From: a virus
Taxonomy: Duplodnaviria; Caudoviricetes
IMG/VR virus record: IMGVR_UViG_3300044645_001738
Span: 1 to 64,000 of that record
Direction: 5' to 3' (one strand)
Length of the DNA stretch: 64,000 nt
Shown here: in pieces, positions 1-44,549 of the stretch
How the letters are laid out: each line of letters starts with the position of its first letter
Numbering within the stretch: position 1 is the stretch's first letter
Translations under genes and position numbers: made by a program
Notes under the pieces: generated by a model
Seen by the model: only the letters and a program-made list of their open reading frames with translations
What the model was told of the DNA's origin: nothing
The model's database searches: none

Positions 1-1
1 T

Positions 2-172
2 GTAAGCGCTGGTTGGACTGTTTTCAACCACGAGCTTTCAACTGGGTTTGCCGAATACCAGGTCAATGCTGCCGCTGCTGCTGCTCAACGCAGAAGCAAG
101 CACATTGACAGCTTGATCACTGGTGACTACGCACGCTCAACTTCGAGCGGTCGCAAGATCACCTTTAGCTAA
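2..172 (+). CDS. Partial hypothetical protein (5' end outside window)
   Basis: Open frame VSAGWTVFNHEL...RKITFS* read by hand, stop TAA at 170-172. Confidence 0.6.
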   Translation, partial: VSAGWTVFNHELSTGFAEYQVNAAAAAAQRRSKHIDSLITGDYARSTSSGRKITFS

Positions 173-239
173 CCCTGGTGGGTTCCAGGGAGGTTCGATT
201 CCTCCCTTAGTTATTGCCTTCAGCGGAGATAGGCACCGC
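166..239 (+). ncRNA. tRNA-like mini-cloverleaf followed by a small pseudoknot
   Basis: TAGCTAA(166-172)/TTAGTTA(207-213) 7-bp stem; CTGG-TGGGTT-CCAG hairpin; GGAGG-TTCGATT-CCTCC T-arm; then TGCCT/AGGCA stem with GCGG/CCGC pairing. Confidence 0.55.
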
Positions 240-257
240 ACAACTTAATTTAGCACC

Positions 258-437
258 ATGCGTAATGCAGCCACAATCATTTGTGTCGCAGCATTGATCA
301 TTGGTGTAGGCACGCAAGTGTCAGTACACCAATTGGAGAAGGCTACTGCACAGCAATGTGCTAACCACGACTGGCCCAAGTCTGCGCACGAGGTCCACAT
401 GGCCTGGTGTGCAGCCAACAATTACCCCACTCATTAA
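258..437 (+). CDS. Small protein with hydrophobic N-terminus (59 aa)
   Basis: MRNAATIICVAALIIGVGTQV...YPTH*, read by hand (below ORF track cutoff). Confidence 0.6.
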   Translation: MRNAATIICVAALIIGVGTQVSVHQLEKATAQQCANHDWPKSAHEVHMAWCAANNYPTH

Positions 438-450
438 GGAGAATACGTAC

Positions 451-648
451 GTGTATTTCATTACACTTGACGGTAAACAGTACCGTCATTATTCGTCCAA
501 CGAGTACGTCGAGGCATTGGAAGATGCCGCACAACTGGACCACATCTACAACTCACCAGAGTTAAACGATGGCGTTCAGGGTTCCCACGACATTAAACTT
601 CTCACTCTTCCTGAGATGATGATGTCCGACGTTGAGATGGTCATCTGA
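451..648 (+). CDS. Hypothetical protein
   Basis: 3' part of ORF 358..648; GTG start at 451 preceded by AAGGAG. Confidence 0.55.
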   Translation: MYFITLDGKQYRHYSSNEYVEALEDAAQLDHIYNSPELNDGVQGSHDIKLLTLPEMMMSDVEMVI

Positions 649-709
649 CCAGGCGTGATGCCGGGGCATCGAATGCCCCACTCAACAATTGCCACACACA
701 GAGTGTGGC
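631..709 (+). ncRNA. Second tRNA-like cloverleaf element plus hairpin
   Basis: GTTGAG(631-636)/CTCAAC(681-686) stem, two short hairpins, GGGGC-ATCGAAT-GCCCC T-like arm, then ATT-GCCACAC/GTGTGGC hairpin. Confidence 0.45.
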
Positions 710-724
710 TTAACTTAAAGCAAC

Positions 725-913
725 ATGACCGCACTTAACATCCGCAAGAACACTGCTGGTCTGCTTAAGATTGCAGCATCAGCAGTAGAGAATGCCAAAG
801 TACCTACCAAGACACAAGCATCCAATGCACTGCATGACATTCGTTGTCGAGCAGCTGCACTTGTAATGCCTAACGACATGGCATTCGTTATCACACCTAA
901 GACAAACATCTGA
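725..913 (+). CDS. Hypothetical protein
   Basis: ATG ORF in co-oriented early array, followed by terminator-like hairpin. Confidence 0.6.
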   Translation: MTALNIRKNTAGLLKIAASAVENAKVPTKTQASNALHDIRCRAAALVMPNDMAFVITPKTNI

Positions 914-926
914 CGTTTGCACTAAG

Positions 927-963
927 GGGCTACGGCCCTTTTCTGCAGACCTCATTGTCTGCA
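927..963 (+). terminator. Terminator-like hairpin + U tract followed by second hairpin (copy 1)
   Basis: GGGC-TACG-GCCC-TTTT then TGCAGAC-CTCATT-GTCTGCA. Confidence 0.55.
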
Positions 964-988
964 TTCAATTCACACCACTTGGATTCAC

Positions 989-1228
989 ATGACTCCTAAA
1001 GCTGTTGAACATCTACTCACGCAGGACGCTCGCCTGCTTGCCAGGAGAGATGCCCCTGCCATTGACCAAGAACTTGAAGCGCAGCGTCAAGCTGCACTCG
1101 AAATTTTTTTCAAATGGCAGGATCATGCCTGTCAATTTGAAGACGTCATACCATTCTGCGTGGTACTCCAACGCCAGGTAAATCTCAACCGAGATTTGCT
1201 ACGTTGGGAACGCCAGAACGCAGACTGA
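989..1228 (+). CDS. Hypothetical protein
   Basis: 79-aa ATG ORF ending RQNAD*. Confidence 0.65.
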   Translation: MTPKAVEHLLTQDARLLARRDAPAIDQELEAQRQAALEIFFKWQDHACQFEDVIPFCVVLQRQVNLNRDLLRWERQNAD

Positions 1229-1264
1229 CTTCTGTACTTAACCTTCCGCACTGTATTTTACAAC

Positions 1265-1438
1265 ATGAATATCAATTGGAAAGAAGCGGAATTTCTTATG
1301 CATTGCATAGAACTATTCGCTAATGGTGACAAGGAGTTTCCTTTCACCACATACGATGGACTTGACATTTTGCTGACTACTGAACAGATCGAAGAACTGT
1401 TTCAACAGTTGCAGCAGCAGCGCCAGAACGCAGACTGA
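1265..1438 (+). CDS. Hypothetical protein (57 aa) between direct repeats
   Basis: MNINWKEAEFLMHCIELF...QQRQNAD*, read by hand. Confidence 0.6.
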   Translation: MNINWKEAEFLMHCIELFANGDKEFPFTTYDGLDILLTTEQIEELFQQLQQQRQNAD

Positions 1439-1456
1439 CTACTGACTTCTGTACTT

Positions 1457-1504
1457 AACCTTCCGTTTCGGCGGTAGGTTTTCTACAGGACTCAACATCC
1501 TGTA
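1457..1504 (+). terminator. Terminator-like hairpin followed by CAGGA-CTCAACA-TCCTG hairpin (copy 2)
   Basis: AACCTTCCG...CGGTAGGTT-TT then TACAGGA-CTCAACA-TCCTGTA. Confidence 0.55.
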
Positions 1505-1525
1505 TCCCATTGTTAATTCAATTCC

Positions 1526-1906
1526 ATGCTGAGCAACACCATCATCGGCAACATCACCTACATGGAGAAAGCTGTGCATGAGGGTCGCGAGTTCCTTGCG
1601 ATCACCATGACAGTTAACGACATGTACGACGGTGCTTGCCGAGTCCGGTTCAACAACTCCAACGGGTTGTTGACTGCATACAACAACGGCACACTCATTG
1701 TTGGACACCAGCTCATCCTGAGTCAATACGACGTGCGAATCAGCAGCATTCGTACGCACTACCTGAAGGATGGACTGATGCATCAACTTAAGTACCCTGA
1801 GCTTGCACTCACTCGAGTGAGGGCTATCATCGGTGCCGCACCCAGGCCCAAGCCTGAGGTTGTGGCACCAACTGTCGAACCAACTCTTGAAGAGATTGCA
1901 TTCTGA
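1526..1906 (+). CDS. Putative SSB-like OB-fold protein
   Basis: N-terminal TIIGNI, beta-rich core, Pro-rich linker, acidic tail EEIAF resembling SSB C-terminus. Confidence 0.5.
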   Translation: MLSNTIIGNITYMEKAVHEGREFLAITMTVNDMYDGACRVRFNNSNGLLTAYNNGTLIVGHQLILSQYDVRISSIRTHYLKDGLMHQLKYPELALTRVRAIIGAAPRPKPEVVAPTVEPTLEEIAF

Positions 1907-1916
1907 TTCCTGCATC

Positions 1917-1964
1917 AAGGGCCTTGGGTTACCAGGGCCTTTCTTGCAGGACTCAACATCCTGC
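1917..1964 (+). terminator. Terminator-like hairpin followed by CAGGA-CTCAACA-TCCTG hairpin (copy 3)
   Basis: GGGCCTTGG-GTTA-CCAGGGCCT-TTCTT then GCAGGA-CTCAACA-TCCTGC. Confidence 0.55.
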
Positions 1965-1991
1965 TCAACATTTACCCAACATCTTAACCAC

Positions 1992-2249
1992 ATGCCAGTC
2001 ACTATTGATCACAAAGAACTTCAAGATGCACTGGAAGAGTTTGATATTCGTCCGGCAGATTACTATCTGTCGTTTGACACCAATGTTGTTTACCTCGTTT
2101 GGTGTACGACCGGCGCTAATGCCGTTCGACACGTACACAGCAACGGATGTATAGACATTGAAATCAAAGGCGTATGGCATGACGAAGTTCCTGAAGGTTA
2201 CATCCTTCCTACATACGCATGCGTACGTTTGGTCTTTGCAACCAACTGA
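1992..2249 (+). CDS. Hypothetical protein
   Basis: 3' part of ORF 1833..2249 from MPVTIDHKEL. Confidence 0.55.
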   Translation: MPVTIDHKELQDALEEFDIRPADYYLSFDTNVVYLVWCTTGANAVRHVHSNGCIDIEIKGVWHDEVPEGYILPTYACVRLVFATN

Positions 2250-2425
2250 CATGAAGCAAATCATTCCCCTAGGCAAAGGCCGATTTGTCCACGTTGATTC
2301 TTACGGTGTGTCTCAGACACGCCGTGGATCCATCATTGTGGCAGCCTTTGCCATGATCATCTCAGCACTCACTGTCGGTGCCGTACTTGGCATCGACATC
2401 ACCTCACCCAACACCACCACACAAC

Positions 2426-2650
2426 ATGGCTATCCACATCGCACTGATCGTTGATCGCAGCGGTCGTTATGCCCACGTTTGGGGCGAAGCTCCAAGCTGG
2501 AGTAAGTTTTCCGACCAGCTCGAAGACCTTGGCGCAGAGGTGGTAGAAGAACAAACAGACGACTGGGAAGGCAGTACCAAAGATGAGATCGCTGAAGATT
2601 GCGTGGCAATTAACCAGCTTCTCAGCGGTACGGACTTCCTACCCCACTGA
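2426..2650 (+). CDS. Hypothetical acidic protein
   Basis: 3' part of ORF 2378..2650 from MAIHIALIVD. Confidence 0.55.
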   Translation: MAIHIALIVDRSGRYAHVWGEAPSWSKFSDQLEDLGAEVVEEQTDDWEGSTKDEIAEDCVAINQLLSGTDFLPH

Positions 2651-2736
2651 TAGCGTCAACAGATCGCACTACACCACACCTGGTACTTGTCATCTGATAG
2701 GTACCAGGTACTCTATGCAAGCAACCAACTCAAACC

Positions 2737-3186
2737 ATGGAAGCACTTAGCCAACTCGACGTTCAAGCCCCTGATCACGTCAGTGTAATTACAAGGGAAG
2801 GCAAGGTCACTATCTCCGTCGTTAAAGACGGAACATCAGTGACTCTTGGATTCCCCATCAAAACTACAGGGCTTGATACAACCCCCAGACCCCCGCTTCA
2901 GCAACCAGCACCAAAGGTAATGGCTGTTAAGACCCAGCATTCCACTGCAGTGCAGCTGGAAACATCTTATCTTTCCTTGAAAAGTAAACACTCTCCCGTT
3001 GGCAACTGTAAGTTGACACCGCAGCAGGTACGTCAAATCAAACTGATACTGACGGATGAACGGTTCATGAAAGCATTTGGTTCTAGGCAACAAGCTTATG
3101 AAGCAATTGCTGTTAAGTTCAACGTCAGTTACCACACAATCTCCAACATCCACAAAGGACTTGCTTGGAGGAACGTAAACATTTAA
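2737..3186 (+). CDS. Protein with C-terminal HTH-like DNA-binding domain
   Basis: KLTPQQVRQIK...IAVKFNVSYHTISNIHKGLAW resembles the HTH tails of phage HNH endonucleases. Confidence 0.6.
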   Translation: MEALSQLDVQAPDHVSVITREGKVTISVVKDGTSVTLGFPIKTTGLDTTPRPPLQQPAPKVMAVKTQHSTAVQLETSYLSLKSKHSPVGNCKLTPQQVRQIKLILTDERFMKAFGSRQQAYEAIAVKFNVSYHTISNIHKGLAWRNVNI

Positions 3187-3213
3187 CTACTCATACCTTG
3201 AGTGGTAACACTC

Positions 3214-3307
3214 ACGTCCTGAGTACACGAAGTGTAGCGACACAATGTATTCCTTTGTTTTCAATGGAATGCATTGTGTTACCACCTTCGGTGACGTTAA
3301 ACTGCTC
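3214..3307 (+). ncRNA. Repeated H-type pseudoknot element, copy 1 (with inserted long hairpin)
   Basis: ACGTC-CT-GAGTA-[67-nt hairpin]-GACGT-TAAAC-TGCTC. Confidence 0.65.
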
Positions 3308-3330
3308 AACACACCACTGCAATTCACACG

Positions 3331-3534
3331 ATGAGAGACCCTGACTTCATTGATGAACAACGCAATGCCGATGCACTTGATGCAATGGCTGATCGTGTAT
3401 ACGAATTGGAAGAAGCCATGCGTGAAGCAGAACAAGATGGTTGGACAGGTGTTTTCAATGATGAGATATCAAATGAAGAACGCTACGCATGTGACCATTA
3501 CAACGAGAGGTATGTAATCAATGACTACCACTAA
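3331..3534 (+). CDS. Hypothetical acidic protein
   Basis: ATG ORF just downstream of pseudoknot element. Confidence 0.6.
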   Translation: MRDPDFIDEQRNADALDAMADRVYELEEAMREAEQDGWTGVFNDEISNEERYACDHYNERYVINDYH

Positions 3535-3615
3535 ACAAATCTGGGATGAAGACCCAGTGCTGCTGGGTATTGTCCTGGTATCAATCACAGTCACACTCAT
3601 TGGAGACTTCATCAA

Positions 3616-3969
3616 ATGCCTACTGCAAATCCATTTGCCAAGACAGAAGCAGCTCGTCGCTGGATCAGTAGGTACAACTGGTCAACAGAATTTGAAGACA
3701 AGGAACCAACCACGATCACGCTCCACGAATGCACCATGCATTACGGTGGACAAGAAGAAGGAGGATGGTATTGGGAATCAGGTTGGCCCATCAAAACAAT
3801 CTGTATCTTCTCCAAGAAGCAAGCCATCCGCGAAGCAATCGCACTCGAAGAGTACGCACTCGAAACCATTGGTGACAAGAAGGACAACCTTGGATGGCCC
3901 CAATGGCACGTTAGCTTCTCCAACGAGTACGCCAAAGCGTACCCCGAAGAACGTCCGTACTACTGCTGA
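3616..3969 (+). CDS. Hypothetical phage protein
   Basis: YGGQEEGGWYW and PEERPYYC motifs; coupled to next ORF. Confidence 0.7.
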   Translation: MPTANPFAKTEAARRWISRYNWSTEFEDKEPTTITLHECTMHYGGQEEGGWYWESGWPIKTICIFSKKQAIREAIALEEYALETIGDKKDNLGWPQWHVSFSNEYAKAYPEERPYYC

Positions 3970-4223
3970 TGTCAAATCAACTGGACCTGCCCAAGCTTGA
4001 TCCCAAGATCAGGCTGACAATCAACCAACGCAACATCTGGTTCTACTTTCTGAATCACAGGAAGAAGTACAAGAACTTACCTTGTTATGTACCAAAGCTT
4101 CCGATGCAGGAGACCAGGCGTCAAGACTATTACACAGCCTTGGAAAGGTTGGAGCAATACGGATTGATACGCGTGGACAGAACCAGTCGTAACTACACAG
4201 GCTGGATCATGCTTGATCCCTAA
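3969..4223 (+). CDS. Hypothetical protein, possible winged HTH
   Basis: LTINQRNIW...ALERLEQYGLIRV pattern. Confidence 0.55.
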   Translation: MSNQLDLPKLDPKIRLTINQRNIWFYFLNHRKKYKNLPCYVPKLPMQETRRQDYYTALERLEQYGLIRVDRTSRNYTGWIMLDP

Positions 4224-4309
4224 CCAACATATAAGTTTTACTTATATTCCATTCGCTATTTGCGAATAGCGCACAGTAGGTACCAGAGTATTGCCAGATA
4301 ACTGCCAAC

Positions 4310-4582
4310 TTACTTACCTAAAGTATTAATCAAATCTTTATTGGCTTGGTTTACAACTTGATAGGCGTGTTCCAATGGCTTTGGTTTAAGAGACTTTATA
4401 TCTTGAACGTCACTAGCCCAAAACATTCCAACGTTTGAACCGCCCCAAATCAAGTGATCTCCTTGTGCATATCGTTTAGATGTATATTCATTGACAACAT
4501 GCTGATCAATGTATTTACCAGAGGCTACCTCCCTGGGATATGCAACAACTTGATCTACATACTTACCAGCTAATTCCATCAC
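4310..4582 (-). CDS. Counter-oriented AT-rich hypothetical protein
   Basis: 90-aa ORF flanked by 14-bp direct repeat CAGAGTATTGCCAG; internal repeat GKYVDQVV/GKYIDQHV. Confidence 0.55.
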   Translation of the reverse strand: MMELAGKYVDQVVAYPREVASGKYIDQHVVNEYTSKRYAQGDHLIWGGSNVGMFWASDVQDIKSLKPKPLEHAYQVVNQANKDLINTLGK

Positions 4583-4630
4583 TTAAACCTTTTAAATAAC
4601 ATAATAAGACAGAGTATTGCCAGCTTCAAC

Positions 4631-4668
4631 CCTGGACATCCACATACTTATGTGGTGTAAGTCCCAGG
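4631..4668 (+). ncRNA. GTGTAAGTC bulged-hairpin motif, copy 1
   Basis: CCTGG-ACATC-CACATA-CT-TATGTG-GTGTAAGTC-CCAGG. Confidence 0.5.
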
Positions 4669-4696
4669 ATTAATTCAACCTCTCAACAAACACACT

Positions 4697-5083
4697 ATGA
4701 CTGAATCAAGTGAACAACTGGTTACAGTTATTTGTTTAGTAGTTCAGCCACGTTACGAAGAAGTCGTAATGACTCAGTCTGAATTCGAAGCATTCAATAA
4801 AGAATTCCAAGAGACATGTCCAGACGAATACGAAGAAGACTTGCTGCGTAAGTATAAGTTTGTCGATTGGGAATACGGTACCCTTGGTACTAACTTAGAT
4901 GCTGATAGTTATCAATTTCGAGCTTACCCTGGCGACGTAAGAAACGGATCAGATGATGTTGTTTACTTTGACACGAATCAATCGTGGCAGAAAGCATATT
5001 CAAACAAGAAGCTTTCCCTGCGCAAACATGGAAACTATCTTCGATATGTACAGGAACGTAGAGAATTAACCCAAGAAGAATGA
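4697..5083 (+). CDS. Hypothetical protein
   Basis: 128-aa ATG ORF. Confidence 0.6.
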   Translation: MTESSEQLVTVICLVVQPRYEEVVMTQSEFEAFNKEFQETCPDEYEEDLLRKYKFVDWEYGTLGTNLDADSYQFRAYPGDVRNGSDDVVYFDTNQSWQKAYSNKKLSLRKHGNYLRYVQERRELTQEE

Positions 5084-5234
5084 TCCCAACTATGTGTACT
5101 ACACTTTTGTGCCTGACTCAATACTTTGGATCGGGCATAACATATACTCAGTCATATAACGCAGTTGCATTTAAAGTTCAAGATACTTTTTACTTTTGTA
5201 CTAAAGCATCTGGATTGTACAACTGCATTACCAA

Positions 5235-5666
5235 TCAAGGCCTATACCATTGAGGATTTGATTGTCGATAGTTATAAATTGTTTCTTCTCTTAACTGTTT
5301 TGCAGGTGAAAGAGAAGTTGTAACATCATTTAAATCACTGCCAAGTCCAAAGATTTCTTTGCTTTGCTGAAAACTTTGAGGCTTGGTGCCAAATCTGAAT
5401 CTTGCTTCTATTGATGGATCTTTAATCCCAACATTTAAACCAAAGTTATTACCCATTACACCAAGTTTTCCATTCAAAGGATTCAAGTTAACGCTACCCG
5501 TATCATCTTTGAATTCCATTGATCCACGATTAAGTAATGCGCTAAATACATTGCCTAACTTCTGTGCATCCGTAGGAGCAACTGGATTGTTAAACTGCGT
5601 TGACAACAACGCATCTGTTACTGCAGGACTCCAAGCACCTGCTAAACGTGTGCCAAAATTAGGCAT
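5235..5666 (-). CDS. Counter-oriented AT-rich hypothetical protein
   Basis: ORF from MPNFGTRLAG; upstream motif shared with 4310..4582. Confidence 0.6.
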   Translation of the reverse strand: MPNFGTRLAGAWSPAVTDALLSTQFNNPVAPTDAQKLGNVFSALLNRGSMEFKDDTGSVNLNPLNGKLGVMGNNFGLNVGIKDPSIEARFRFGTKPQSFQQSKEIFGLGSDLNDVTTSLSPAKQLREETIYNYRQSNPQWYRP

Positions 5667-5821
5667 GTGTTTAAACTTGTTTTTACAATAATAAGACAAG
5701 GGTATTGCCAGATAACTACTGGCCTACCCCCCGAACCCCCCGCTGTTCAGTACCAGGGGGGATCCTTAGATATACATACGTTATATCCATTTACTCCCAC
5801 CATTCACTCATCAACTCAACC

Positions 5822-6121
5822 ATGGAACAATCACAGAAGTATCCAACGATTGATTGGACTAAGAACGAATACTACCAAGTGCAACGTGCATTGGAGATCC
5901 TCATGCAGGTCGTTGATCGTGAATCAAAACGTCACGAGATGAATCAACATCTCACACCCAGCATGCTCAGCATGTTGGAAGATGAGATCATCCCAATGCT
6001 TAGTAACGAACTTGACTGTGACGGTGGGCCAAGCGATGACGAAATCTGTGGTGAACCACCGATGACGGCAGACGAAATGCACACTGCTGCATGGCGTCAG
6101 CACCAGGAGCTTCACTCCTAA
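5822..6121 (+). CDS. Hypothetical protein
   Basis: From MEQSQKYP, preceded by CAACTCAACC leader. Confidence 0.65.
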   Translation: MEQSQKYPTIDWTKNEYYQVQRALEILMQVVDRESKRHEMNQHLTPSMLSMLEDEIIPMLSNELDCDGGPSDDEICGEPPMTADEMHTAAWRQHQELHS

Positions 6122-6212
6122 CCAAACATTAAGAGAATCTGTAAGTCTACCTTGGACTAGCCATCCAGGGTAGACTGACCCTGCTTAACTCATTCCGCAA
6201 AACACACATCAG

Positions 6213-6416
6213 ATGTCCGACAAACCACGCATTCCCGACGCACTTGACATGCAACGTCTGCATGTCATGCAGCTTGTTGCCAAGATGAAAGAAGCTGCTG
6301 ATAAACAAGGTGTTCAATTCATCGGGGGTTTCGTCACCCCCGATGGAGAGAAATTTGTAATGACCAATATGGATGAAGATGACCAGCGTATGCTCATGCC
6401 TGAGGAACTCAAGTGA
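6213..6416 (+). CDS. Hypothetical protein
   Basis: 67-aa ATG ORF overlapping next start (GTGA). Confidence 0.65.
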   Translation: MSDKPRIPDALDMQRLHVMQLVAKMKEAADKQGVQFIGGFVTPDGEKFVMTNMDEDDQRMLMPEELK

Positions 6417-6766
6417 CTAATCAACACCCAATCACCCCACCGCCCGAGCTGGTGACGAATTGGTTAAGACATCGCAAACTTCTGGACCCGCAACCGCTTG
6501 CCCACCATTACCTTGCTAGTCGCGCCGCCCAATGGGGCTCAGACCAGGAGCTGGAGGCGTGTATTGAGTGGGTATCCATTCAGTTGAACTGTACCTCCCA
6601 AGAGCATTTAGTTCCACATCTCCGCGCCGCCCGCCGCCCCAAGCCGCCGAGTCTGAAGGAGCAGGCATTCAAGGATCTAGATGAATTGCTCCGTATTGCG
6701 AGACAAGCTGGAGTTTTTAATCCACCTGATAACATCCGCCGCGCACTGGAGGCTTTGCCCGAATGA
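6413..6766 (+). CDS. Mosaic small protein, family A (PITPPPELV / AAQWGxDQELEAC / ARRPKPPSLKEQA / IRRALE)
   Basis: Paralogous conserved blocks shared with 7739..8098 and 15401..15772. Confidence 0.8.
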   Translation: MTNQHPITPPPELVTNWLRHRKLLDPQPLAHHYLASRAAQWGSDQELEACIEWVSIQLNCTSQEHLVPHLRAARRPKPPSLKEQAFKDLDELLRIARQAGVFNPPDNIRRALEALPE

Positions 6767-7155
6767 CTAAACCTTTAACGCACAACAGAGTTGACATCAA
6801 AGTTATTTTGGCTAACCCCTTACTACGGGAAGAGTTAATTGAGGGTGCTACAGATTTTATTTGCAAAGTTGAAGGTATTCGCCGCCGTAAAGAAGATTTG
6901 GAAATGACTAACCTTTCTTCCGCCGCACAGGCGGTGCTGAGTGCCGCTAATGCTTCCGCAACTAATGCGTGGTCTGACGCCACTCACCAACGCTTTAGGT
7001 CTGGTGTAGCCGCCGCCCTGCAAGCTGCTGCTGATCAGGTGGTGCCGGAAACCACAACACCATGGAACTCCACTTTGACTCCAATGATTTCAGCAGGAGA
7101 AGTACGCGCTAAGTTCCTCGCCATCGCCGCCGAGCTGGAGGGTGGCAATGAATGA
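6763..7155 (+). CDS. Mosaic small protein, family B (LSxAAQAVL / AAALxAAADQVVPE / LAIAAELE); family B part starts at ATG 6904
   Basis: Blocks shared with 12797..13063 and 15765..16007. Confidence 0.75.
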   Translation: MTKPLTHNRVDIKVILANPLLREELIEGATDFICKVEGIRRRKEDLEMTNLSSAAQAVLSAANASATNAWSDATHQRFRSGVAAALQAAADQVVPETTTPWNSTLTPMISAGEVRAKFLAIAAELEGGNE

Positions 7156-7306
7156 CCTCGATGACACGCTCACCGCGATTGCCGCAGTAGCAACCCTTCT
7201 GATTATGTTTGCGGTTGCTTGGTGGTGGTTGCCGCAAAAGTGGCAAGCCTGCCAAAAGCTGTATGACAACCGTCCAGCCCAAGTATTCTGCTTTGGAGTT
7301 AAATGA
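7148..7306 (+). CDS. Small membrane protein (52 aa)
   Basis: MNDLDDTLTAIAAVATLLIMFAVAWWWLPQKW..., overlaps both neighbours. Confidence 0.6.
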   Translation: MNDLDDTLTAIAAVATLLIMFAVAWWWLPQKWQACQKLYDNRPAQVFCFGVK

Positions 7307-7746
7307 CTGACACTTTTCGTGCGCTGTGCGCTGAGCTGGCTGATTCCGTAGAGCTGTTGCTTGAAATGCGGAGCAATGATCGACCGATGCGGGTAACAGA
7401 GGATCGCCTTAACCGCGCCCGCGCCGCCCTGGAGGCCCAGCCCGAGCCGCAGGGGCCGAGTGAACTGGAACTAGAGGCCATTGAACTGAAGCTATGGGAC
7501 AAGCACCGAACCAAGGGATATATGGGAGAAGAGTTTATGTATGACAACGACTTCAGCGCTGCCTTGGATGAATACCGCGCTGCCCTGGCCCGATGGGGCC
7601 GCCCCGCCATCGAGCCCGAGCCGCCGAGCTTGAAGGAGCAGGCGCTGGAGGAGCTAACCGAAATCGACTGTCACTACATACCCCCTGGGGCGACCGAACG
7701 CATTGACATTATCCGCCGCGCACTGGAGGCCCTGCCAAATGACTAG
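7303..7746 (+). CDS. Mosaic small protein, family C head fused to family A tail
   Basis: FRALCAEL / RARAALEAQPEPQGPS / LARWGRPAIEP then PPSLKEQAL / IRRALEAL. Confidence 0.8.
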   Translation: MTDTFRALCAELADSVELLLEMRSNDRPMRVTEDRLNRARAALEAQPEPQGPSELELEAIELKLWDKHRTKGYMGEEFMYDNDFSAALDEYRAALARWGRPAIEPEPPSLKEQALEELTEIDCHYIPPGATERIDIIRRALEALPND

Positions 7747-8098
7747 CCCGATCACCCCGCCGCCGGAGCTAGTGCAGCAGTGGGTGGGCGGCGCCTTCCT
7801 ATCAGATGTGCACCACAACGAAGAAGATTTGGCGTACGAACAGTACATCGCTGAACGTGCCGCCCAATGGGGCGCCGACCAGGAACTGGAGGCGTGCTGT
7901 GAGTGGATTAAATCTGAACTCCGAGGACAACTTCGCCCCGCCCATCGAATCGCCATTGAACTCCGCGATGCCCGCCGCCCCAAGCCGCCGAGTCTGAAGG
8001 AGCAGGCGCTTGGCATCCTTGATGTGGCTCACCACGATGTTTTAGAAGATGACCAAATAGCAACTATCCGCCGCGCACTGGAGCAACTCGATGACTAA
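7739..8098 (+). CDS. Mosaic small protein, family A
   Basis: MTSPITPPPELV...AAQWGADQELEAC...IRRALEQLDD. Confidence 0.8.
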   Translation: MTSPITPPPELVQQWVGGAFLSDVHHNEEDLAYEQYIAERAAQWGADQELEACCEWIKSELRGQLRPAHRIAIELRDARRPKPPSLKEQALGILDVAHHDVLEDDQIATIRRALEQLDD

Positions 8099-8291
8099 AA
8101 ACAAATCACCAATTAACTTTGACAAGACAATCGCTGGCTTTAACATAACTGAGCACGGCGTTAAGTCTTATACCAAGTCAATTAAACTTGGTCCGTTCCA
8201 GGTTACACTTAATGCTCGTGGCTCTGGTGTCAGAGGATCTATTAGTATCCCCGGCACAGGCTTGAGCAAACGTAACATCCAACTGTTCTAA
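8091..8291 (+). CDS. DUF4236-like protein
   Basis: KSIKLGPFQVTLN...SISIPGTGLS motif. Confidence 0.6.
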   Translation: MTKNKSPINFDKTIAGFNITEHGVKSYTKSIKLGPFQVTLNARGSGVRGSISIPGTGLSKRNIQLF

Positions 8292-8293
8292 TA

Positions 8294-8328
8294 GCTGGGC
8301 ATCACCACTAGGGTGTGTAAGTCCCAGT
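8294..8328 (+). ncRNA. GTGTAAGTC bulged-hairpin motif, copy 2
   Basis: GCTGGG-CATC-ACC-ACTAG-GGT-GTGTAAGTC-CCAGT. Confidence 0.5.
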
Positions 8329-8524
8329 ACCCACCTCGCTCTCAACTCAACATGGATTCACTCACACTATTTGATCGCATCAATCTTGCAAAGTGTGCAC
8401 AGTTGCGTGCTGAAACCAACGTCCTTAACAACGACGTATTTATGGGAGAGTATTACACTGCACGCATGTGGACTAAGTACCGGTGTTACATCACCAAAAC
8501 TGTTTCATTCGTGGAGTCTGACTG

Positions 8525-8773
8525 ATGTCTGTCCTTGCAATCGAATCAACCGTCATCGATGATGACTATGTCACAGTTGAAGCAATTGTTGATGACATGC
8601 GTTGCATTTATGCAGCGACTTACTCAAGCCCTGCTGAATACGCTCCGGCACTTTGCCGAGCTAGCTTCTTCTTGGGTGATGACACCATCCCTACTGATGA
8701 AGATGGCTTCTGCCGTTATCTTGACGCATGCCAGCTTGAGTGGGAACCCATTGATCTAGGTAACGACGAATGA
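8525..8773 (+). CDS. Hypothetical cyanophage protein
   Basis: VEAIVDDM...PAEYAPALCRASF, acidic, coupled start. Confidence 0.65.
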   Translation: MSVLAIESTVIDDDYVTVEAIVDDMRCIYAATYSSPAEYAPALCRASFFLGDDTIPTDEDGFCRYLDACQLEWEPIDLGNDE

Positions 8774-8947
8774 TTGGATTCTCCATCGAATTTAAACGCT
8801 GGTACATCACAGTGCGTGGTCCCATGGGCAGGGTATATCTCTGCACTGGGTTTGCCAAACGCCTGCCAGTGTTTGTGTCACCGCAACAATCAATTGCATT
8901 TGATGACGACATCACTGATGATGAAGACTATGGTGTAAGGTAACACC

Positions 8948-8975
8948 ACGTCCTGAGCATGACGTTAAACTGCTC
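8948..8975 (+). ncRNA. Repeated pseudoknot element, copy 2
   Basis: ACGTC-CT-GAGCA-T-GACGT-TAAAC-TGCTC. Confidence 0.7.
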
Positions 8976-9000
8976 ATCATTTTAATTCAATTGCACACAC

Positions 9001-11673: not shown

Positions 11674-11892
11674 TTGCTGAAGCCACAGCAGGGCCATCGT
11701 ATTCTCGTTATAGGTGGCCCTTTCTCTAATGCCTGATTACACTGACGATCAACTACTTGCCATGGCAATGGCAAACCTTGGTGAATACATCCATGACAAC
11801 TCACCACATTACATTCTGATTGAAGAAGATCCTCGCAATGAGGATGACTACGACACGTGGAGTTATGGTACTGAGCCATTACCACGTGATCA

Positions 11893-11936
11893 CACTTGGC
11901 AGCACACATCAGTTGATGTGAGTGTAAGTCCAAGTG
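11893..11936 (+). ncRNA. GTGTAAGTC bulged-hairpin motif, copy 3 (abuts tRNA)
   Basis: CACTTGG-CAGCAC-ACATC-AGTT-GATGT-GA-GTGTAAGT-CCAAGTG. Confidence 0.5.
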
Positions 11937-11938
11937 AT

Positions 11939-12024
11939 GGGGACATGGCGGAATAGGTAGACGCAACGGACTTAAAATCCGTAGGCCATTGGCTGTGAGA
12001 GTTCAAGTCTCTCTGTCCCTACCA
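11939..12024 (+). tRNA. trnL: tRNA-Leu(TAA)
   Basis: GGGGACA/TGTCCCT acceptor, ACGGA-CTTAAAA-TCCGT anticodon arm, long variable arm, GAGAG-TTCAAGT-CTCTC T-arm, encoded ACCA. Confidence 0.95.
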
Positions 12025-29273: not shown

Positions 29274-29345
29274 AGGGTCGTGCCGGAATCGAACCGACTT
29301 TCAATGTGTGTTGTCCACCTGTCCTTACCAATAGACTAACGACCC
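29274..29345 (-). tRNA. tRNA-like gene with aberrant anticodon arm (isotype undetermined)
   Basis: GGGTCGT/ACGACCC acceptor, GTCT-ATTGGTAA-GGAC D-arm, GTCGG-TTCGATT-CCGGC T-arm; anticodon region GGTGGACAACACACATT pairs poorly and lacks U33. Confidence 0.75.
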
Positions 29346-42077: not shown

Positions 42078-44549
42078 TTAGTTTCCCTCCAGTGCGGCGA
42101 CTTTGGCTTCCAAGGTTTCGATGCGGGACTGTGCTTCTTGGAGAGCCTTAATAGCCATCCACATCATCTGCTGATCTTTGACGCCAAGTTGCTGCTCTCG
42201 GGCAGGCTGATCTTCAGTCGCCTCTTTGGCTTCTTGAAAAACGGTAATTACTTCTGGGCAGCTCTCGGCAACCTGCTGGGCAATGACGCCCATGTTCAGG
42301 TCAGCGTCGTCTGGCTGGTCCTTGTAGCGGAAGTTGACGATCTCCCATTCCTTCAAGTAATTCCAAGTGCCGGCAGCTGGGACAATATCTTTTTTGGCGT
42401 TGCGATCAGACAAGTTGACGTTGTTGGCGCTGAAGTTGGCTAAACCACCGTTAGAACGTATTTCTGCTCTTATGGCAGCAGTGTCGCCGCATTTAATGAA
42501 AACAGCTGTTGTATTATTTGGCGCATAGCCACTAAAATCAGTCTCAAGCAGTGCGGTAGTAAATCCACTGGTTGCACTTCCATTTACATATAAGTTGTAT
42601 TCGTTATTTGCGTGACCAAGTCTAGTTTGACCAGTACTACTAATCCTCATCCGCTCCGTGGGGCTGCTCGCACCATCGGCGGTGGTGGAGAAGACCAGGC
42701 AACCTGGATAATCGCCGCTCCCACCCGCGCCATCTGCTTCTGCAAGTATACGCGCATAATCTCCTCCACTTCCATCGGCAAACCAAATGCTGCCTAGATC
42801 GTTTCCTGCGACAATAGACGCTGAAGCCGTGGTGTTCCCTAAGGTTAATCTTCCTTCTGAGCCTCCTCCAGCAGTATTGCCTCTAATTTGAATCAAAGAA
42901 TAGTTGCTGTCGTTGACGCCACTTCCAAAAGCAGTACTCGTCCCCACCAGCAGCCTGCCGTCGCTCGTGAATCTAGCTATTTCTGAAGGGCCACCACCAC
43001 CACTGGTGCCGGATTTCAAAATAATAGATTGCGTGGTGCCGAGATTAGCCGGAAATGCGTTGGCAATTATTTCTAATCCAGACGAAGTAGGAAGTAATCG
43101 AGAATAAATATTAGTTGATGAAACAACGTTAATCGCACCAGCAACCTGTAGTAAATCGCTTCCTCCAAGTCCAACTTCAGTAGCGCTTCTGCCAACTAAG
43201 AGCCTGCCGGAGCTGTCGATGCGGAGGCGTTCGGTGCCGCCAGGGGCAAAAAAGATGTCCTTAAGTGCTCCGGTTCCGCGGAAAGAAGTACCAAATCCAA
43301 AAGCAGAACCGTTGTAACCAATACCTAGAACAGACTGGTCCGCGTTTGCTTCAATGTGAATTGCAGAAGCAAATGTGGTGTCATTTTGCTGCTTTAAGCT
43401 AATAACAGGGCGTGCAAATGTCCCAGTGGTTGGGTTGGTTGTCGTATTTGCAAGAATTGAGCCGGAGCTGTCGATGCGGAGGCGTTCGGTGTTGTTTGTG
43501 GCAAAGCGCAGGTAACCATTGCGGGGATTCCATATCTCACTATCAACGTTATTAACGGCAGTTACATTTCCAATTGTCAGCGTTTCAGTACCGTTATTTT
43601 GTAAACTTAATCCGCCAACAATGGATGAACCATCTCCGTTAATTGTTGTACGGTAAACAATACTTGGACTACTCGTCCCAATCCCCACGTTGCCGGAGCT
43701 GTCGATGCGGAGGCGTTCGGTGTTGTTTGTGCTCCAAATATGAGAACCGCCAGCGCCTCCAGTGTATAGATATGCAGATTGATTGTTAGTTCGATCATAA
43801 ATCAATAAGTTGTTTCCAACTGCCCCGCCCATGCCAATTGACATTGAGCCGCTTGTGTTCACAAAACGAATGTAACCTCCACTAGAGGCTGATGTTTCTA
43901 CGCGTAGTCCTTCTCCACTACCAAACACGTGAAGCGGCGCCGCAGGACTACTCGTCCCAATCCCCACGTTGCCAACGCTGTCGATGCGGAGGCGTTCAGC
44001 GCCAACAGTTTGAAATGCAATACTCTGAGAGCTTTGGTTGGCTGCAATAGTGGCAACACCAGAAGAATCAATCCACAACTCAAGGCGTTTTGTGCTTGCG
44101 CTTGATTCTTCTAAACGTATTTGAGCAGTGGCCGCATTGATTTGCAGCGGATACTGTGGGCTACTTGTCCCAACCCCAAGTCTGCCCGTTGAATCAATAA
44201 AAATTCTTCCTGCACCACCAGTGCTAATACCTAAAAGGTCAGTGCCAGCACCATATAAACCAGGTGCCACACTTGCGCCAACACCTACTTGAATACTTGG
44301 AGCACCAGCGCTTCCTGCTGGAACTTTAACAATTGCACCAGAAATTTGCGTGGTGTAAACACCTGATGCAAAGTTGGCAGTCGTACCAGTTACCGTTGGG
44401 GCCTGAACAATTAAACCAGAGATGGTACCTGTTGCCGTGACGTTACCAGTGAAGGTAGGGTTTTGAACTAAACCTGAAATTGCGACACTCTTATCTACGC
44501 CCGCATCCGTAAACGTAATCGTATCAACTTTGATAGTACCGTACGGCAT
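42078..44549 (-). CDS. Tail fibre with C-terminal intramolecular chaperone (peptidase S74-like)
   Basis: Repeated ERLRIDSSGNVGIGT units; SDRNAKKDI...GVIAQQV...AIKALQE coiled coil. Confidence 0.9.
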   Translation of the reverse strand: MPYGTIKVDTITFTDAGVDKSVAISGLVQNPTFTGNVTATGTISGLIVQAPTVTGTTANFASGVYTTQISGAIVKVPAGSAGAPSIQVGVGASVAPGLYGAGTDLLGISTGGAGRIFIDSTGRLGVGTSSPQYPLQINAATAQIRLEESSASTKRLELWIDSSGVATIAANQSSQSIAFQTVGAERLRIDSVGNVGIGTSSPAAPLHVFGSGEGLRVETSASSGGYIRFVNTSGSMSIGMGGAVGNNLLIYDRTNNQSAYLYTGGAGGSHIWSTNNTERLRIDSSGNVGIGTSSPSIVYRTTINGDGSSIVGGLSLQNNGTETLTIGNVTAVNNVDSEIWNPRNGYLRFATNNTERLRIDSSGSILANTTTNPTTGTFARPVISLKQQNDTTFASAIHIEANADQSVLGIGYNGSAFGFGTSFRGTGALKDIFFAPGGTERLRIDSSGRLLVGRSATEVGLGGSDLLQVAGAINVVSSTNIYSRLLPTSSGLEIIANAFPANLGTTQSIILKSGTSGGGGPSEIARFTSDGRLLVGTSTAFGSGVNDSNYSLIQIRGNTAGGGSEGRLTLGNTTASASIVAGNDLGSIWFADGSGGDYARILAEADGAGGSGDYPGCLVFSTTADGASSPTERMRISSTGQTRLGHANNEYNLYVNGSATSGFTTALLETDFSGYAPNNTTAVFIKCGDTAAIRAEIRSNGGLANFSANNVNLSDRNAKKDIVPAAGTWNYLKEWEIVNFRYKDQPDDADLNMGVIAQQVAESCPEVITVFQEAKEATEDQPAREQQLGVKDQQMMWMAIKALQEAQSRIETLEAKVAALEGN

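What the first reader, a model, noticed from the sequence alone, without database searches (positions are those of the whole stretch)
166..709. Two tRNA-like mini-cloverleaves straddling stop codons in the early region
Seen: 166-213 forms a 7-bp acceptor-like stem, a short hairpin with a GG-containing loop and a canonical GGAGG-TTCGATT-CCTCC T-arm, but no anticodon arm. 631-686 has a similar topology in different sequence (GTTGAG/CTCAAC; GGGGC-ATCGAAT-GCCCC). Both overlap the upstream ORF stop codon, are followed by ATTGCC plus another stem (a GCGG/CCGC pseudoknot in the first), and end ~15-20 nt before the next ATG. Known: acceptor plus T-arm is the RNase P/RNase Z recognition element. Inference: tRNA mimics used as processing punctuation of the early polycistron, or as decoys.
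Basis: partly seen in the sequence, partly recalled or inferred. Interest (0 to 1): 0.7.

Follow-up and report, generated by a model that had tools for sequence, protein, structure and literature searches.

The report
tRNA-like punctuation between phage early genes
The two small tRNA-like folds are real: they belong to a large, previously uncatalogued family of structured RNA spacers that sit between the small early genes of a lineage of freshwater cyanophages, and they probably mark where the long early message is cut or protected.

Summary
Both elements exist as described. They are the window's only two copies of a modular intercistronic RNA family. I found over 300 distinct copies in IMG/VR contigs, plus two in the isolate Synechococcus phage S-EIVl.

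Module A starts at the upstream stop codon. It is a three- or four-way junction: a closing stem stacked on a T-arm-like hairpin, about 12 bp together, plus a side hairpin or a GG-bearing linker. After 1-2 unpaired bases comes a near-invariant UUGCC (UURCC), which opens module B, a hairpin or a pseudoknot. The next start codon lies 15-25 nt further on.

- **Covariation:** strong for both modules, and G-U pairs place the fold on the mRNA strand.
- **Databases:** Rfam and ARAGORN find nothing.
- **Distribution:** whole-record searches of the window's record, three relatives and S-EIVl put every copy in one cluster. One proper copy was found among hits from 596 Gb of prokaryote genomes.

Best reading (about 0.45) is mRNA punctuation like the plant mitochondrial t-elements. 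Cutting in the A|UU linker, by RNase Z/P or another nuclease, would leave each cistron a 5' hairpin and a 3' tRNA-like cap. Cleavage is inferred; no RNA data were available.

The parts
2..172 (+). Upstream ORF, cut at its 5' end by the start of the record. Its stop TAA 170-172 lies in the closing stem of el1.
   Evidence: ORF list. In relative L031 the same ORF starts about 30 nt further upstream.
166..213 (+). el1 module A (type C). Closing stem P1 167-171/208-212 (plus optional 166:213); linker 172-186 containing UGGUG; T-arm-like H2 187-193/201-207 with loop TTCGATT 194-200; unpaired A213.
   Evidence: One search lists 24 loci in this loop class: one near-identical copy (L002) and several with the same P1-linker-H2 layout but different stem sequences. 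The type-A model R2 detects it weakly (E 0.017, 20.6 bits).
214..239 (+). el1 module B1. UUGCC 214-218 opens a pseudoknot: S1 215-219/231-235, S2 223-226/236-239, with a GGAGAU stretch that is invariant across the aligned copies.
   Evidence: 98.7% of cells paired versus 24-43% when the partner is slid; 5 of 9 pairs show double changes; 117 of 126 copies have all four S2 pairs, in at least 8 Watson-Crick variants.
258..437 (+). ORF of 59 aa served by el1. The leader 240-257 has no Shine-Dalgarno sequence.
451..648 (+). ORF of 65 aa (GTG start after AAGGAG 436-441). Its last codons and its stop TGA 646-648 are part of el2.
   Evidence: Relatives share 65-94% protein identity.
631..688 (+). el2 module A (type B, four-way form). 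P1 631-636/681-686; hairpin 638-642/647-651; hairpin H1 652-654/660-662; H2 663-668/674-679 with loop UCGAA 669-673; unpaired AA 687-688.
   Evidence: z = -4.66. (type B: H2 100% paired, closing pair A:U 59, G:C 8, C:G 2). (14 el2-like copies: all 11 pairs of P1 and the extra hairpin paired in 14 of 14; one pair is A:T in 7 and T:A in 7).
689..709 (+). el2 module B2. UUGCC 689-693 opens the hairpin GCCACAC 691-697 / GTGTGGC 703-709.
   Evidence: Stem variants ACAC/GTGT, ACCC/GGGT, ACTC/GAGT and AACC/GGTT occur in relatives.
725..913 (+). ORF of 62 aa served by el2 (leader 710-724).

Best explanation
The two elements are copies of a phage-specific family of modular intercistronic RNA structures that act in the sense-strand early mRNA as punctuation.

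Module A mimics the top half of a tRNA. An acceptor-like stem is stacked on a T-arm-like hairpin, about 12 bp in all. A side hairpin or GG-bearing linker may dock on the T-like loop. Module A closes the upstream cistron right at its stop codon.

One or two unpaired bases follow (A or UA, in the place of a discriminator). Then a near-invariant UUGCC (UURCC) opens module B, a hairpin or pseudoknot that heads the next cistron.

I propose that a host endonuclease cuts in the A|UU linker. RNase Z after the discriminator-like base is the most specific candidate. RNase P, or a nuclease unrelated to tRNA, are also possible. Cutting would turn the polycistronic early transcript into small mRNAs. Each would carry a protective 5' hairpin or pseudoknot and a 3' tRNA-like cap, so each could have its own stability and translation.

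Shown: the structures, their covariation, the strand, the fixed geometry relative to stop and start codons, confinement to one gene cluster in the records searched whole, and modularity.

Inferred: cleavage, the enzyme and stabilisation.
For: 1. **Module A structure is under selection.**
   - Type A, 150 of 179 distinct copies: 95.9% of cells paired. Column shuffles give 74.4% (0 of 500 reach the observed value) and slid partners give 33-48%. Thirteen of 16 pairs show double changes.
   - RNAalifold predicts the same junction on its own.
   - Type B: 89.2% paired versus 32-53% slid, with 13 of 15 pairs showing double changes.
   - The el2-like subset: 14 of 14 copies paired at all 11 tested pairs.
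2. **The fold is on the mRNA strand.** Pair 18-25 is U-G in 143 of 150 copies. In loci oriented by their genes, 61 of 68 candidates lie on the coding strand.
3. **The geometry is ruler-like.**
   - The distance from the T-like loop to UUGCC peaks at 13 nt (292 distinct copies) and 14 nt (88). Other bins hold 4-22 per strand.
   - At 13 nt, 195 of 292 copies have all 12 positions paired, split 7+5 (154), 6+6 (26), 5+7 (11) or 8+4 (4). A shuffled 3' strand finds a partner in 27%, 8% and 5% of cases for 5-, 6- and 7-mers.
   - Twelve base pairs followed by one unpaired base is the acceptor plus T-stem geometry of tRNA (established knowledge). RNase P is described as measuring the T-stem-loop/acceptor stack (PMC4919913, passages).
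4. **The context fits RNase Z.**
   - RNase Z cuts directly after the discriminator, is suppressed by C just downstream, and contacts only the acceptor stem and T-arm (PMC7479834, passages). Here the base after the unpaired A is always U.
   - el1 matches GGTTCRANYCC, the motif used to find plant t-elements (PMC1920247, passages).
5. **The layout is that of punctuation.**
   - In 293 of 298 copies an ORF of at least 40 codons ends inside the element (mode -42 from UUGCC, 147 copies). The next start lies at +30 to +49 in 217 copies.
   - Relative L032 has seven units in a row after terminator-like hairpins, with no sigma-70-like plus-strand site.
   - Model hits fall in one cluster of about 0.4-1.4 kb per genome.
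   - Seen directly in the sequence: module-B-like hairpins also precede genes that follow GC-rich hairpins ending in a T run, with no module A (window about 944-962 and 1945-1963).
6. **Modules are interchangeable.** Three kinds of module A combine with pseudoknot or hairpin forms of module B. This points to a structural role rather than a sequence-specific one.
Against: - There are no RNA data of any kind, so cleavage is pure inference.
- RNase P cleavage at the 5' end of the closing stem would cut off the upstream stop codon. That would be harmful unless it is regulatory.
- The archaeal RNase Z enzymes in PMC7479834 needed a mature 5' end (passage). Here the 5' side continues as a long ORF.
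- The commonest loops (UGCAAAC, and UCGAA closed by a covarying pair) are not the canonical T-loop. The closing stem is only 5-6 bp.
- ARAGORN and the Rfam tRNA model do not respond.
- Only 1-2 unpaired bases separate modules A and B, which is little room for RNase E.
- The tight placement of the stop codon inside the closing stem is not needed for processing. It hints at a link with translation.
- The 12-bp rule is incomplete. It holds fully in 195 of 292 copies, and type B has two unpaired bases after the stack.
- The copies are related sequences, so shuffle controls overstate significance. The slid-partner controls and the many distinct compensatory variants are the sturdier evidence.
Confidence: 0.45

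Rival explanations
1. The elements control or couple translation. The terminating ribosome must melt the closing stem and side hairpin, because the stop codon lies in them. Module B and the leader set how the next start codon is presented. The elements would then tune reinitiation, or the relative translation of neighbouring small genes, without any cleavage.
For: - The stop codon is embedded at a fixed place (mode -42, 147 of 293 copies) and the next start lies 30-49 nt after UUGCC.
- The pseudoknot holds an invariant GGAGAU, which resembles a Shine-Dalgarno sequence.
- Many pseudoknot-type units in relatives are followed by a small hairpin that pairs the Shine-Dalgarno GG and the start codon. 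At least 32 of 311 match a strict pattern.
Against: - Stop and start are about 80 nt apart, which is far for reinitiation.
- Hairpin-type module B has no GGAG, yet it occupies the same place.
- I saw no conserved complementarity between module A and the start region, though I did not test this systematically.
- A tRNA-like 12-bp ruler is not needed for coupling.
Confidence: 0.2
2. The tRNA-like pieces are released or act in place as decoys or ligands. They would bind a host factor that recognises the tRNA top half or elbow, such as the CCA-adding enzyme, a tRNA-targeting defence nuclease, a Ro/Y-RNA-type partner or the ribosomal E-site/L1 region. The benefit to the phage would lie in that binding.
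For: - The top-half geometry, the T-loop-like U-N-N-R-A pentads in the H2 loops (UGCAA, UUCGA, UCGAA) and the multiple copies per operon give a high local dose.
Against: - There is no anticodon arm, which is the usual target of known tRNA-cleaving defences (recalled).
- Release needs a 5' cut that destroys the upstream stop codon.
- The window's own phage has only two copies.
- The strict coupling to module B and to ORF borders is not explained.
Confidence: 0.15
3. The repeats matter mainly at the DNA level, as recombination junctions that shuffle small early genes. They would resemble the PeSL cassettes of T4-type phages, and the RNA folds would be secondary.
For: - Homology between copies breaks inside the element.
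- In 124 of 155 pairs that share only the left flank, divergence starts at +5 to +39.
- In 47 of 70 pairs that share only the right flank, homology ends at -10 to -1.
- Gene content between elements differs among relatives: 2 units here and up to 7 elsewhere.
Against: - Recombination needs sequence identity, not compensatory base changes. The pseudoknot and the three-way junction covary strongly, with U-G pairs on one strand only.
- No sigma-70-like promoter lies in the elements.
- Shuffling is better read as a consequence of the repeats.
Confidence: 0.1
4. The T-arm-like hairpin with its U-rich tail is a weak intrinsic terminator or attenuator between early genes.
For: The simple scan flags el1's hairpin 187-207 with tail TAGTTATTGC, and one type-A copy in L032, as terminator-like.
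Against: - The tail is the 3' strand of the covarying closing stem, not a free U tract.
- Type B tails (ACUCAGUA) are not U-rich.
- The number of terminator-like sites equals the shuffle expectation.
Confidence: 0.03

Closest known systems
Plant mitochondrial t-elements (Forner et al. 2007, PMC1920247; abstract and passages read)
   Same: Both are non-canonical tRNA-like folds beside or overlapping the ends of protein-coding genes. Both are thought to direct RNase Z and/or RNase P cuts that create mRNA ends. el1 carries the same GGTTCRANYCC T-arm motif used to find t-elements. Some t-elements also lie inside the end of the reading frame.
   Different: t-elements are organellar, few in number and tRNA-derived. 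Here the elements form a phage operon array of up to seven units in three structural classes, most without the canonical T-loop sequence. They are always joined to a UUGCC hairpin or pseudoknot module. No RNA ends have been mapped.
tRNA punctuation of animal mitochondrial transcripts; MALAT1 mascRNA; MHV68 tRNA-miRNA units cut by tRNase Z (all recalled, no call)
   Same: In each case a tRNA or tRNA-like fold inside a longer transcript serves as the cleavage signal. In MHV68 a hairpin follows directly after the tRNA-like part, as module B does here.
   Different: Those are eukaryotic or organellar systems that use full or nearly full cloverleaves. Here the system is bacterial and phage-borne, with no anticodon arm and a stop codon inside the closing stem.
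RNase III processing sites between T7 early genes (recalled, no call)
   Same: Both are structured intercistronic signals in the polycistronic early mRNA of a phage. In T7, cutting yields separate mRNAs with protective terminal structure.
   Different: T7 sites are long, imperfect double-stranded hairpins. The elements here are branched, tRNA-like, and paired with a second module.
PeSL cassettes of T4-type phages (PMC2839356, PMC4122927; search listing and start of abstracts only)
   Same: Both are repeated intergenic motifs that flank small variable early genes and mark the junctions of gene shuffling.
   Different: PeSLs are described as composite promoter-terminator motifs. Here no sigma-70-like promoter was found, and the signal is RNA structure with compensatory changes, including a pseudoknot.
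tRNA-like domains of tmRNA and of bacterial Y RNAs (YrlA) (recalled, no call)
   Same: Both have an acceptor stem plus T-arm with a reduced or absent D-arm. In tmRNA a pseudoknot follows before the reading frame.
   Different: Those are stand-alone RNAs with CCA ends or protein partners. ARAGORN finds no tmRNA here and Rfam finds no family.

Membership tests
Canonical tRNA gene | Full cloverleaf with an anticodon arm, detectable by a tRNA finder or model | tested here: not met
   ARAGORN finds only two tRNA-Leu genes elsewhere in the window and none in 24 related loci. Rfam at E up to 10 gives no tRNA hit in 1-3000.
tRNA-like processing signal (t-element type) | Acceptor-like stem stacked on a T-arm-like hairpin, about 12 bp, followed by an unpaired base | tested here: met
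   The loop-to-UUGCC distance peaks at 13 nt (292 copies). All 12 positions are paired in 195 of 292, split 7+5, 6+6, 5+7 or 8+4. el1 is 5+7 followed by A213. el2 is 6+6 with one A-A mismatch, followed by AA.
tRNA-like processing signal (t-element type) | T-arm motif GGTTCRANYCC (as used in PMC1920247) | tested here: inconclusive
   el1 192-202 reads GGTTCGATTCC and matches. el2 (GCATCGAATGC) and the commonest type A (GGTGCAAACCC) do not.
tRNA-like processing signal (t-element type) | The trailer after the unpaired base lacks C/CCA, the RNase Z anti-determinant | tested here: met
   The trailer is UUGCC or UUACC in the aligned copies. The rule itself comes from PMC7479834 (passage).
tRNA-like processing signal (t-element type) | RNA ends coincide with the element borders, or RNase P/Z cleaves in vitro | not testable with these tools
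   No RNA run holds the sequence.
Any Rfam 15 family (riboswitch pseudoknots, ribozymes, phage motifs) | Covariance-model match | tested here: not met
   No hit in 166-709 at E up to 10. No hit on elements in five related loci at E up to 1.
PeSL promoter-terminator cassette | A host-type early promoter inside the repeat | tested here: not met
   No sigma-70-like plus-strand site in window 1-3000 or in L032 1-4600. The scan covers only that consensus.
PeSL promoter-terminator cassette | Repeats mark the junctions of gene shuffling | tested here: met
   Homology breakpoints cluster within the element.
tmRNA-like tRNA domain | G3:U70 alanine identity pair and a CCA end, conserved | tested here: not met
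   el1 has a G-T at the third pair of its 7-bp stem, but the other type-C relatives use different stems. No CCA follows, and ARAGORN reports no tmRNA.

The most novel reading that the evidence does not exclude
A bacterial virus uses the tRNA-punctuation principle. Host tRNA-maturation enzymes would recognise these anticodon-less tRNA top-half mimics: RNase Z after the discriminator-like A, perhaps RNase P and the CCA-adding enzyme as well. They would cut the early operon into single-gene mRNAs, each ending in a tRNA-like 3' cap and starting with a hairpin or pseudoknot. This would be the first such system outside organelles and eukaryotes. It would come in three independently shaped structural solutions to the same 12-bp ruler.
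Probability: 0.3. Interest if true: 0.85.

Novelty: new variant of a known kind. Interest (0 to 1): 0.72.

Why it matters
- **A new structured RNA class.** It adds a well-supported structured RNA family to phage biology, absent from Rfam. The family has hundreds of natural variants, three interchangeable tRNA-like architectures and a covarying pseudoknot.
- **A new place for a known principle.** If the proposed mechanism holds, tRNA-like punctuation of mRNAs also operates in a bacterium-phage system. So far it is known from mitochondria and a few eukaryotic and viral transcripts.
- **How early genes are handled.** It would explain how a phage gives many tiny early genes individual mRNA fates from a single promoter.
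- **How early genes are shuffled.** The modules also mark where early gene cassettes are exchanged.
- **It can be tested now.** The cultured phage S-EIVl carries two copies.
- **Possible tools.** The parts are compact and might serve as processing or insulator elements for cyanobacterial operon design.

Tried and rejected
- **Known RNA families.** Rfam cmscan on window 1-3000 (E up to 10) gave only two chance-level hits elsewhere: mir-4000 at 1904-1956 and sR11 at 2340-2406. Five related loci gave two unrelated weak hits. ARAGORN gave nothing at the elements.
- **Expression data.** No RNA holder was listed. All 24 listed runs are lake-water metagenome DNA kept as contigs. I did not use read laying, because DNA contigs cannot show RNA ends.
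- **Hammerhead or other self-cleaving ribozyme.** I considered this because of CUGAU at the junction. I rejected it because CUGA is the stop codon plus stem, the junction lacks the conserved cores, and Rfam models do not match.
- **Integron attC-like sites.** I considered this because of the cassette array. I rejected it because the structure is branched, U-G pairs indicate RNA, and Pfam scans of 30 of the window's larger ORFs named no recombinase.
- **Phage-encoded RNase or tRNA enzyme near the array.** Pfam on those 30 ORFs found ThyX, GP88, SSB, DNA polymerase A, primase-helicase, HNH, a ferritin-like protein, glycosyl- and methyltransferases and tail-fibre parts. It found no RNase and no phage RNA polymerase.
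- **Host or cellular origin.** The type-A pattern gave 31 single hits in 596 Gb of prokaryote genomes. Only 1 of 31 has a proper stem and spacing, against 172 of 174 in viral loci. I did not follow up that one hit.
- **Prior description.** I found none. The searches were: tRNA-like + bacteriophage + intergenic + RNase P + polycistronic; S-EIV1 + cyanophage; the title of the S-EIV1 paper, which is not held in the library; and tRNA-like + cyanophage. The catalogue of 10,006 candidate viral structured RNAs built from IMG/VR (PMC10690425, passages read) may contain this motif among its unnamed entries.
- **Three-dimensional feasibility of the pseudoknot.** S1's 3' strand abuts S2's 3' strand directly. 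I could not test this, so two alternating hairpins remain possible.
- **Covariance models.** I built models only for types A and B, not type C. el1 is therefore supported by the type-C layout seen in several relatives and by weak cross-detection.
Full report
**What the window is.** The window is the first 64 kb of an 83,977-nt IMG/VR virus record (linear; CheckV completeness 100). Its only relative among 50,697 isolated phage records is Synechococcus phage S-EIVl, which matches window 989-1156 at 72%. Runs that hold the DNA are lake-water metagenomes. Positions 1-9000 carry small plus-strand ORFs of unknown function, upstream of ThyX, DNA polymerase A, SSB and a primase-helicase. Calling this an early region is reasonable but is an inference.

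- el1: a closing stem (166/167-171 with 208-212/213) encloses a linker (172-186) and a 7-bp T-arm-like hairpin (187-207) with loop TTCGATT. The upstream stop TAA 170-172 lies in the stem.
- After A213 comes TTGCC 214-218. It opens a hairpin (215-219/231-235) whose loop GCGG 223-226 pairs with CCGC 236-239. ATG follows at 258.
- el2: GTTGAG 631-636 pairs with CTCAAC 681-686. These enclose three hairpins: 638-651 (holding the stop TGA 646-648), 652-662 and 663-679. Then come AA, TTGCC 689-693, the hairpin 691-709 and ATG 725.
- RNAfold gives exactly these folds. For 625-725, z = -4.66 (0 of 200 shuffles as good). For 160-260, z is only -1.36.
- On single-sequence thermodynamics alone, el1 would not be convincing.

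**Relatives change the picture.**
- Two neighbouring proteins retrieved 31 loci from related viral contigs. blastn showed that each has 3-7 element-like copies within about 2 kb.
- Reading them revealed a modular unit:
  - Module A is a closing stem P1, a side hairpin H1 or a single-stranded linker, and a 5-8 bp hairpin H2 with a conserved loop.
  - 1-2 unpaired bases follow.
  - UUGCC (sometimes UUACC) opens module B.
  - A 15-25 nt leader precedes the next start codon.
- Module A comes in three kinds:
  - Type A has H1 CCGU-NN-AAGCGG and H2 loop UGCAAAC.
  - Type B (el2) has H1 GGC-GUGAU-GCC and H2 loop UCGAA, closed by a pair that covaries.
  - Type C (el1) has a linker with UGGUG and H2 loop UUCGAYU.
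- Module B is either a pseudoknot (el1) or a plain hairpin (el2).
- Over all loci held, I counted 380 distinct candidate units with the standard spacing, background included.

**The structures are selected.**
- Type A module A (150 random of 179 distinct copies): 95.9% of cells form standard pairs. Column shuffles give 74.4% (0 of 500 reach it) and slid partners give 33-48%. Thirteen of 16 pairs show changes on both sides, in 503 cells.
- RNAalifold, given no structure, returns the same three-way junction.
- Type B (69 copies): 89.2% paired versus 32-53% slid. H2 is 100% paired. The pair that closes the loop is A:U in 59 copies, G:C in 8 and C:G in 2.
- The 14 copies with el2's four-way form have all 11 pairs of P1 and the extra hairpin intact. 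One pair is A:T in seven copies and T:A in seven.
- Pseudoknot (90 of 149 distinct copies): 98.7% paired versus 24-43% slid, with 5 of 9 pairs showing double changes.
- A less biased test used a search pattern that left three of the four S2 pairs free. Of 126 hits with a module A upstream, 117 had all four pairs, in at least eight Watson-Crick versions. Of 41 hits without module A, 10 did.
- The copies are related, so shuffle statistics overstate significance. The slid controls and the number of independent variants do not depend on that.

**Strand and place.**
- The H1 pair U-G occurs in 143 of 150 copies. It would be C-A on the other strand, so the fold belongs to the sense RNA.
- In loci oriented by their genes, 61 of 68 candidates are on the coding strand. 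By inspection, the seven others lack the family loops.
- In 293 of 298 copies, an ORF of at least 40 codons ends inside the element, most often with the stop codon's last base 42 nt before UUGCC (147 copies). That is the last two bases of P1 plus the unpaired A.
- The next long ORF starts 30-49 nt after UUGCC in 217 copies.
- Covariance models R1 and R2, searched over whole records, find copies in one cluster of about 0.4-1.4 kb per genome. The four records with hits were of 47-86 kb.
- In the window's own record only el2 scores strongly, and it is a seed sequence of R1. el1 scores weakly: R2 E = 0.017, R1 E = 0.89.
- In relative L032, seven units follow one another at about 260-nt spacing behind two terminator-like hairpins, with no sigma-70-like plus-strand site.

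**tRNA likeness.**
- The distance from the H2 loop to UUGCC is sharply fixed at 13 nt (292 copies) or 14 nt (88 copies), against 4-22 copies per other bin and strand.
- Within those 13 nt, 12 are paired and one is free. The 12 are shared between H2 and P1 as 7+5 (154), 6+6 (26), 5+7 (11) or 8+4 (4). That makes 195 of 292 fully paired, against 5-27% for shuffled strands.
- In the type-A alignment, one column pairs with the H2 strand in one subtype and with the P1 strand in the other.
- A constant 12-bp stack followed by one unpaired base is the geometry of the tRNA acceptor plus T stems and discriminator (established knowledge).
- This is the edge of tRNA that RNase P measures (PMC4919913, passages). 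It is also the part RNase Z contacts. RNase Z cuts right after the discriminator and is blocked by C downstream (PMC7479834, passages). Here the next bases are always UU.
- el1 matches the GGTTCRANYCC motif used to find plant t-elements (PMC1920247).
- The H2 loops all contain a U-N-N-R-A pentad. That this is the T-loop consensus is recalled, not tested.
- Against: types A and B do not have the canonical T-loop, P1 is short, type B has two free bases, and no tRNA tool responds.

**Modularity and shuffling.**
- I compared 306 distinct copies, each with 130 nt on either side.
- Pairs that share only the upstream flank stay alike into or through module B. Divergence begins at +5 to +39 in 124 of 155 pairs, partly because module B itself is conserved.
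- Pairs that share only the downstream flank stay alike leftwards up to -10 to -1 in 47 of 70 pairs.
- So module B travels with the downstream gene and module A with the upstream one. The junction of gene cassettes lies at or near UUGCC.
- This resembles the role of PeSL cassettes in T4-type phages (listing only). I read it as a consequence of the repeats rather than their function, because recombination does not select for compensatory pairs.

**Mechanism.**
- I commit to intercistronic punctuation, at about 0.45. A cut in the A|UU linker would yield mRNAs with a 5' hairpin or pseudoknot and a 3' tRNA-like cap.
- This fits several observations:
  - the fixed ruler;
  - the free choice among structural solutions;
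  - the position of modules at both ends of every cistron;
  - the sequence observation that genes following GC-rich hairpins with a T run carry a module-B-like 5' hairpin but no module A (window about 944-962 and 1945-1963).
- RNase Z is the most specific candidate. RNase P alone is unlikely to be productive, since its cut would remove the stop codon. Plant nad6 and ccmC mRNAs do end that way.
- The rivals are translational coupling (0.2), a decoy or ligand role (0.15), recombination only (0.1) and terminator (0.03).
- None of these can be settled without RNA data. No RNA holder was listed.

**Novelty.**
- No Rfam family matches.
- The literature searches listed under Tried and rejected found no description.
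- The IMG/VR-wide catalogue of PMC10690425 may include the motif in supplements I could not see.
- The family is essentially absent from cellular genomes: 1 of 31 pattern hits is well-formed, against 172 of 174 in viral loci.
- It is present in a cultured phage.
- I rate it a new variant of a known kind (tRNA-like processing signals), with interest 0.72.

Noticed in passing
Relatives, e.g. L002:1216-1240, L018:2125-2150, L011:1440-1465 (not in the window): After many pseudoknot modules, a small hairpin pairs the GG of a GGAG Shine-Dalgarno sequence and the bases before it with the start codon region. Forms include CACGG-AG..CCGTG, CATGG-AG..CCATG and ACAGG-AG..CCTGTG, and the stem covaries with the start codon (ATG or GTG). 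A strict pattern found 32 of 311 tails; the CAGGAG class was not counted.
   Followed up: partly
window 1211-1248 and 1421-1465: Two neighbouring ORFs (989-1228 and 1265-1438) end with the same residues RQNAD, the same stop and the same 25-nt downstream sequence (repeat families D3 and D10). This looks like another cassette junction or a recent duplication.
   Followed up: no
window 944-962, 1479-1502 and 1940-1963: Hairpins of the module-B kind (CTGCAGAC..GTCTGCAG; GCAGGA-CTCAACA-TCCTGC, repeat D11) sit just after GC-rich hairpins with a T run (about 924-942 and 1917-1944) and 25-35 nt before the next ATG. The 5' hairpin also occurs without the tRNA-like module.
   Followed up: partly
window 4620-4668, 8285-8328 and 11885-11934; also L218:6480-6530 and 7180-7235: A recurrent motif CTGG(G/A)CA - about 17-25 nt - GTGTAAGTCC(C/A)AG lies upstream of ORFs, and it ends 8 nt before tRNA-Leu (which starts at 11939). 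GTAAGTCC occurs 4 times against 1.08 expected. It is a candidate phage-specific promoter or operator, and it is also present in S-EIVl.
   Followed up: partly
window 6500-8100: A GC-rich island (0.548 against 0.40-0.49 around it) holds several 19-66 nt direct repeats at 60-100% identity to each family's reference copy (families D1, D2, D4, D7, D8). These are probably paralogous small genes or a repeated domain.
   Followed up: no
window 11939-12024 (+) and 29274-29345 (-): Two tRNA-Leu genes (anticodons TAA and CAA) lie on opposite strands.
   Followed up: no
window 58992-60992 (-): A 666-aa protein with collagen triple-helix repeats (Pfam E 1.7e-51) lies among tail-fibre-like genes. The neighbour at 42078-44549 has an endosialidase-chaperone domain.
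   Followed up: no
One of L219-L249 (prokaryote genome collection): One of 31 pattern hits in cellular genomes or MAGs has a well-formed H2 stem and the standard 13-14 nt spacing. It may be a prophage or a mis-binned phage contig.
   Followed up: no
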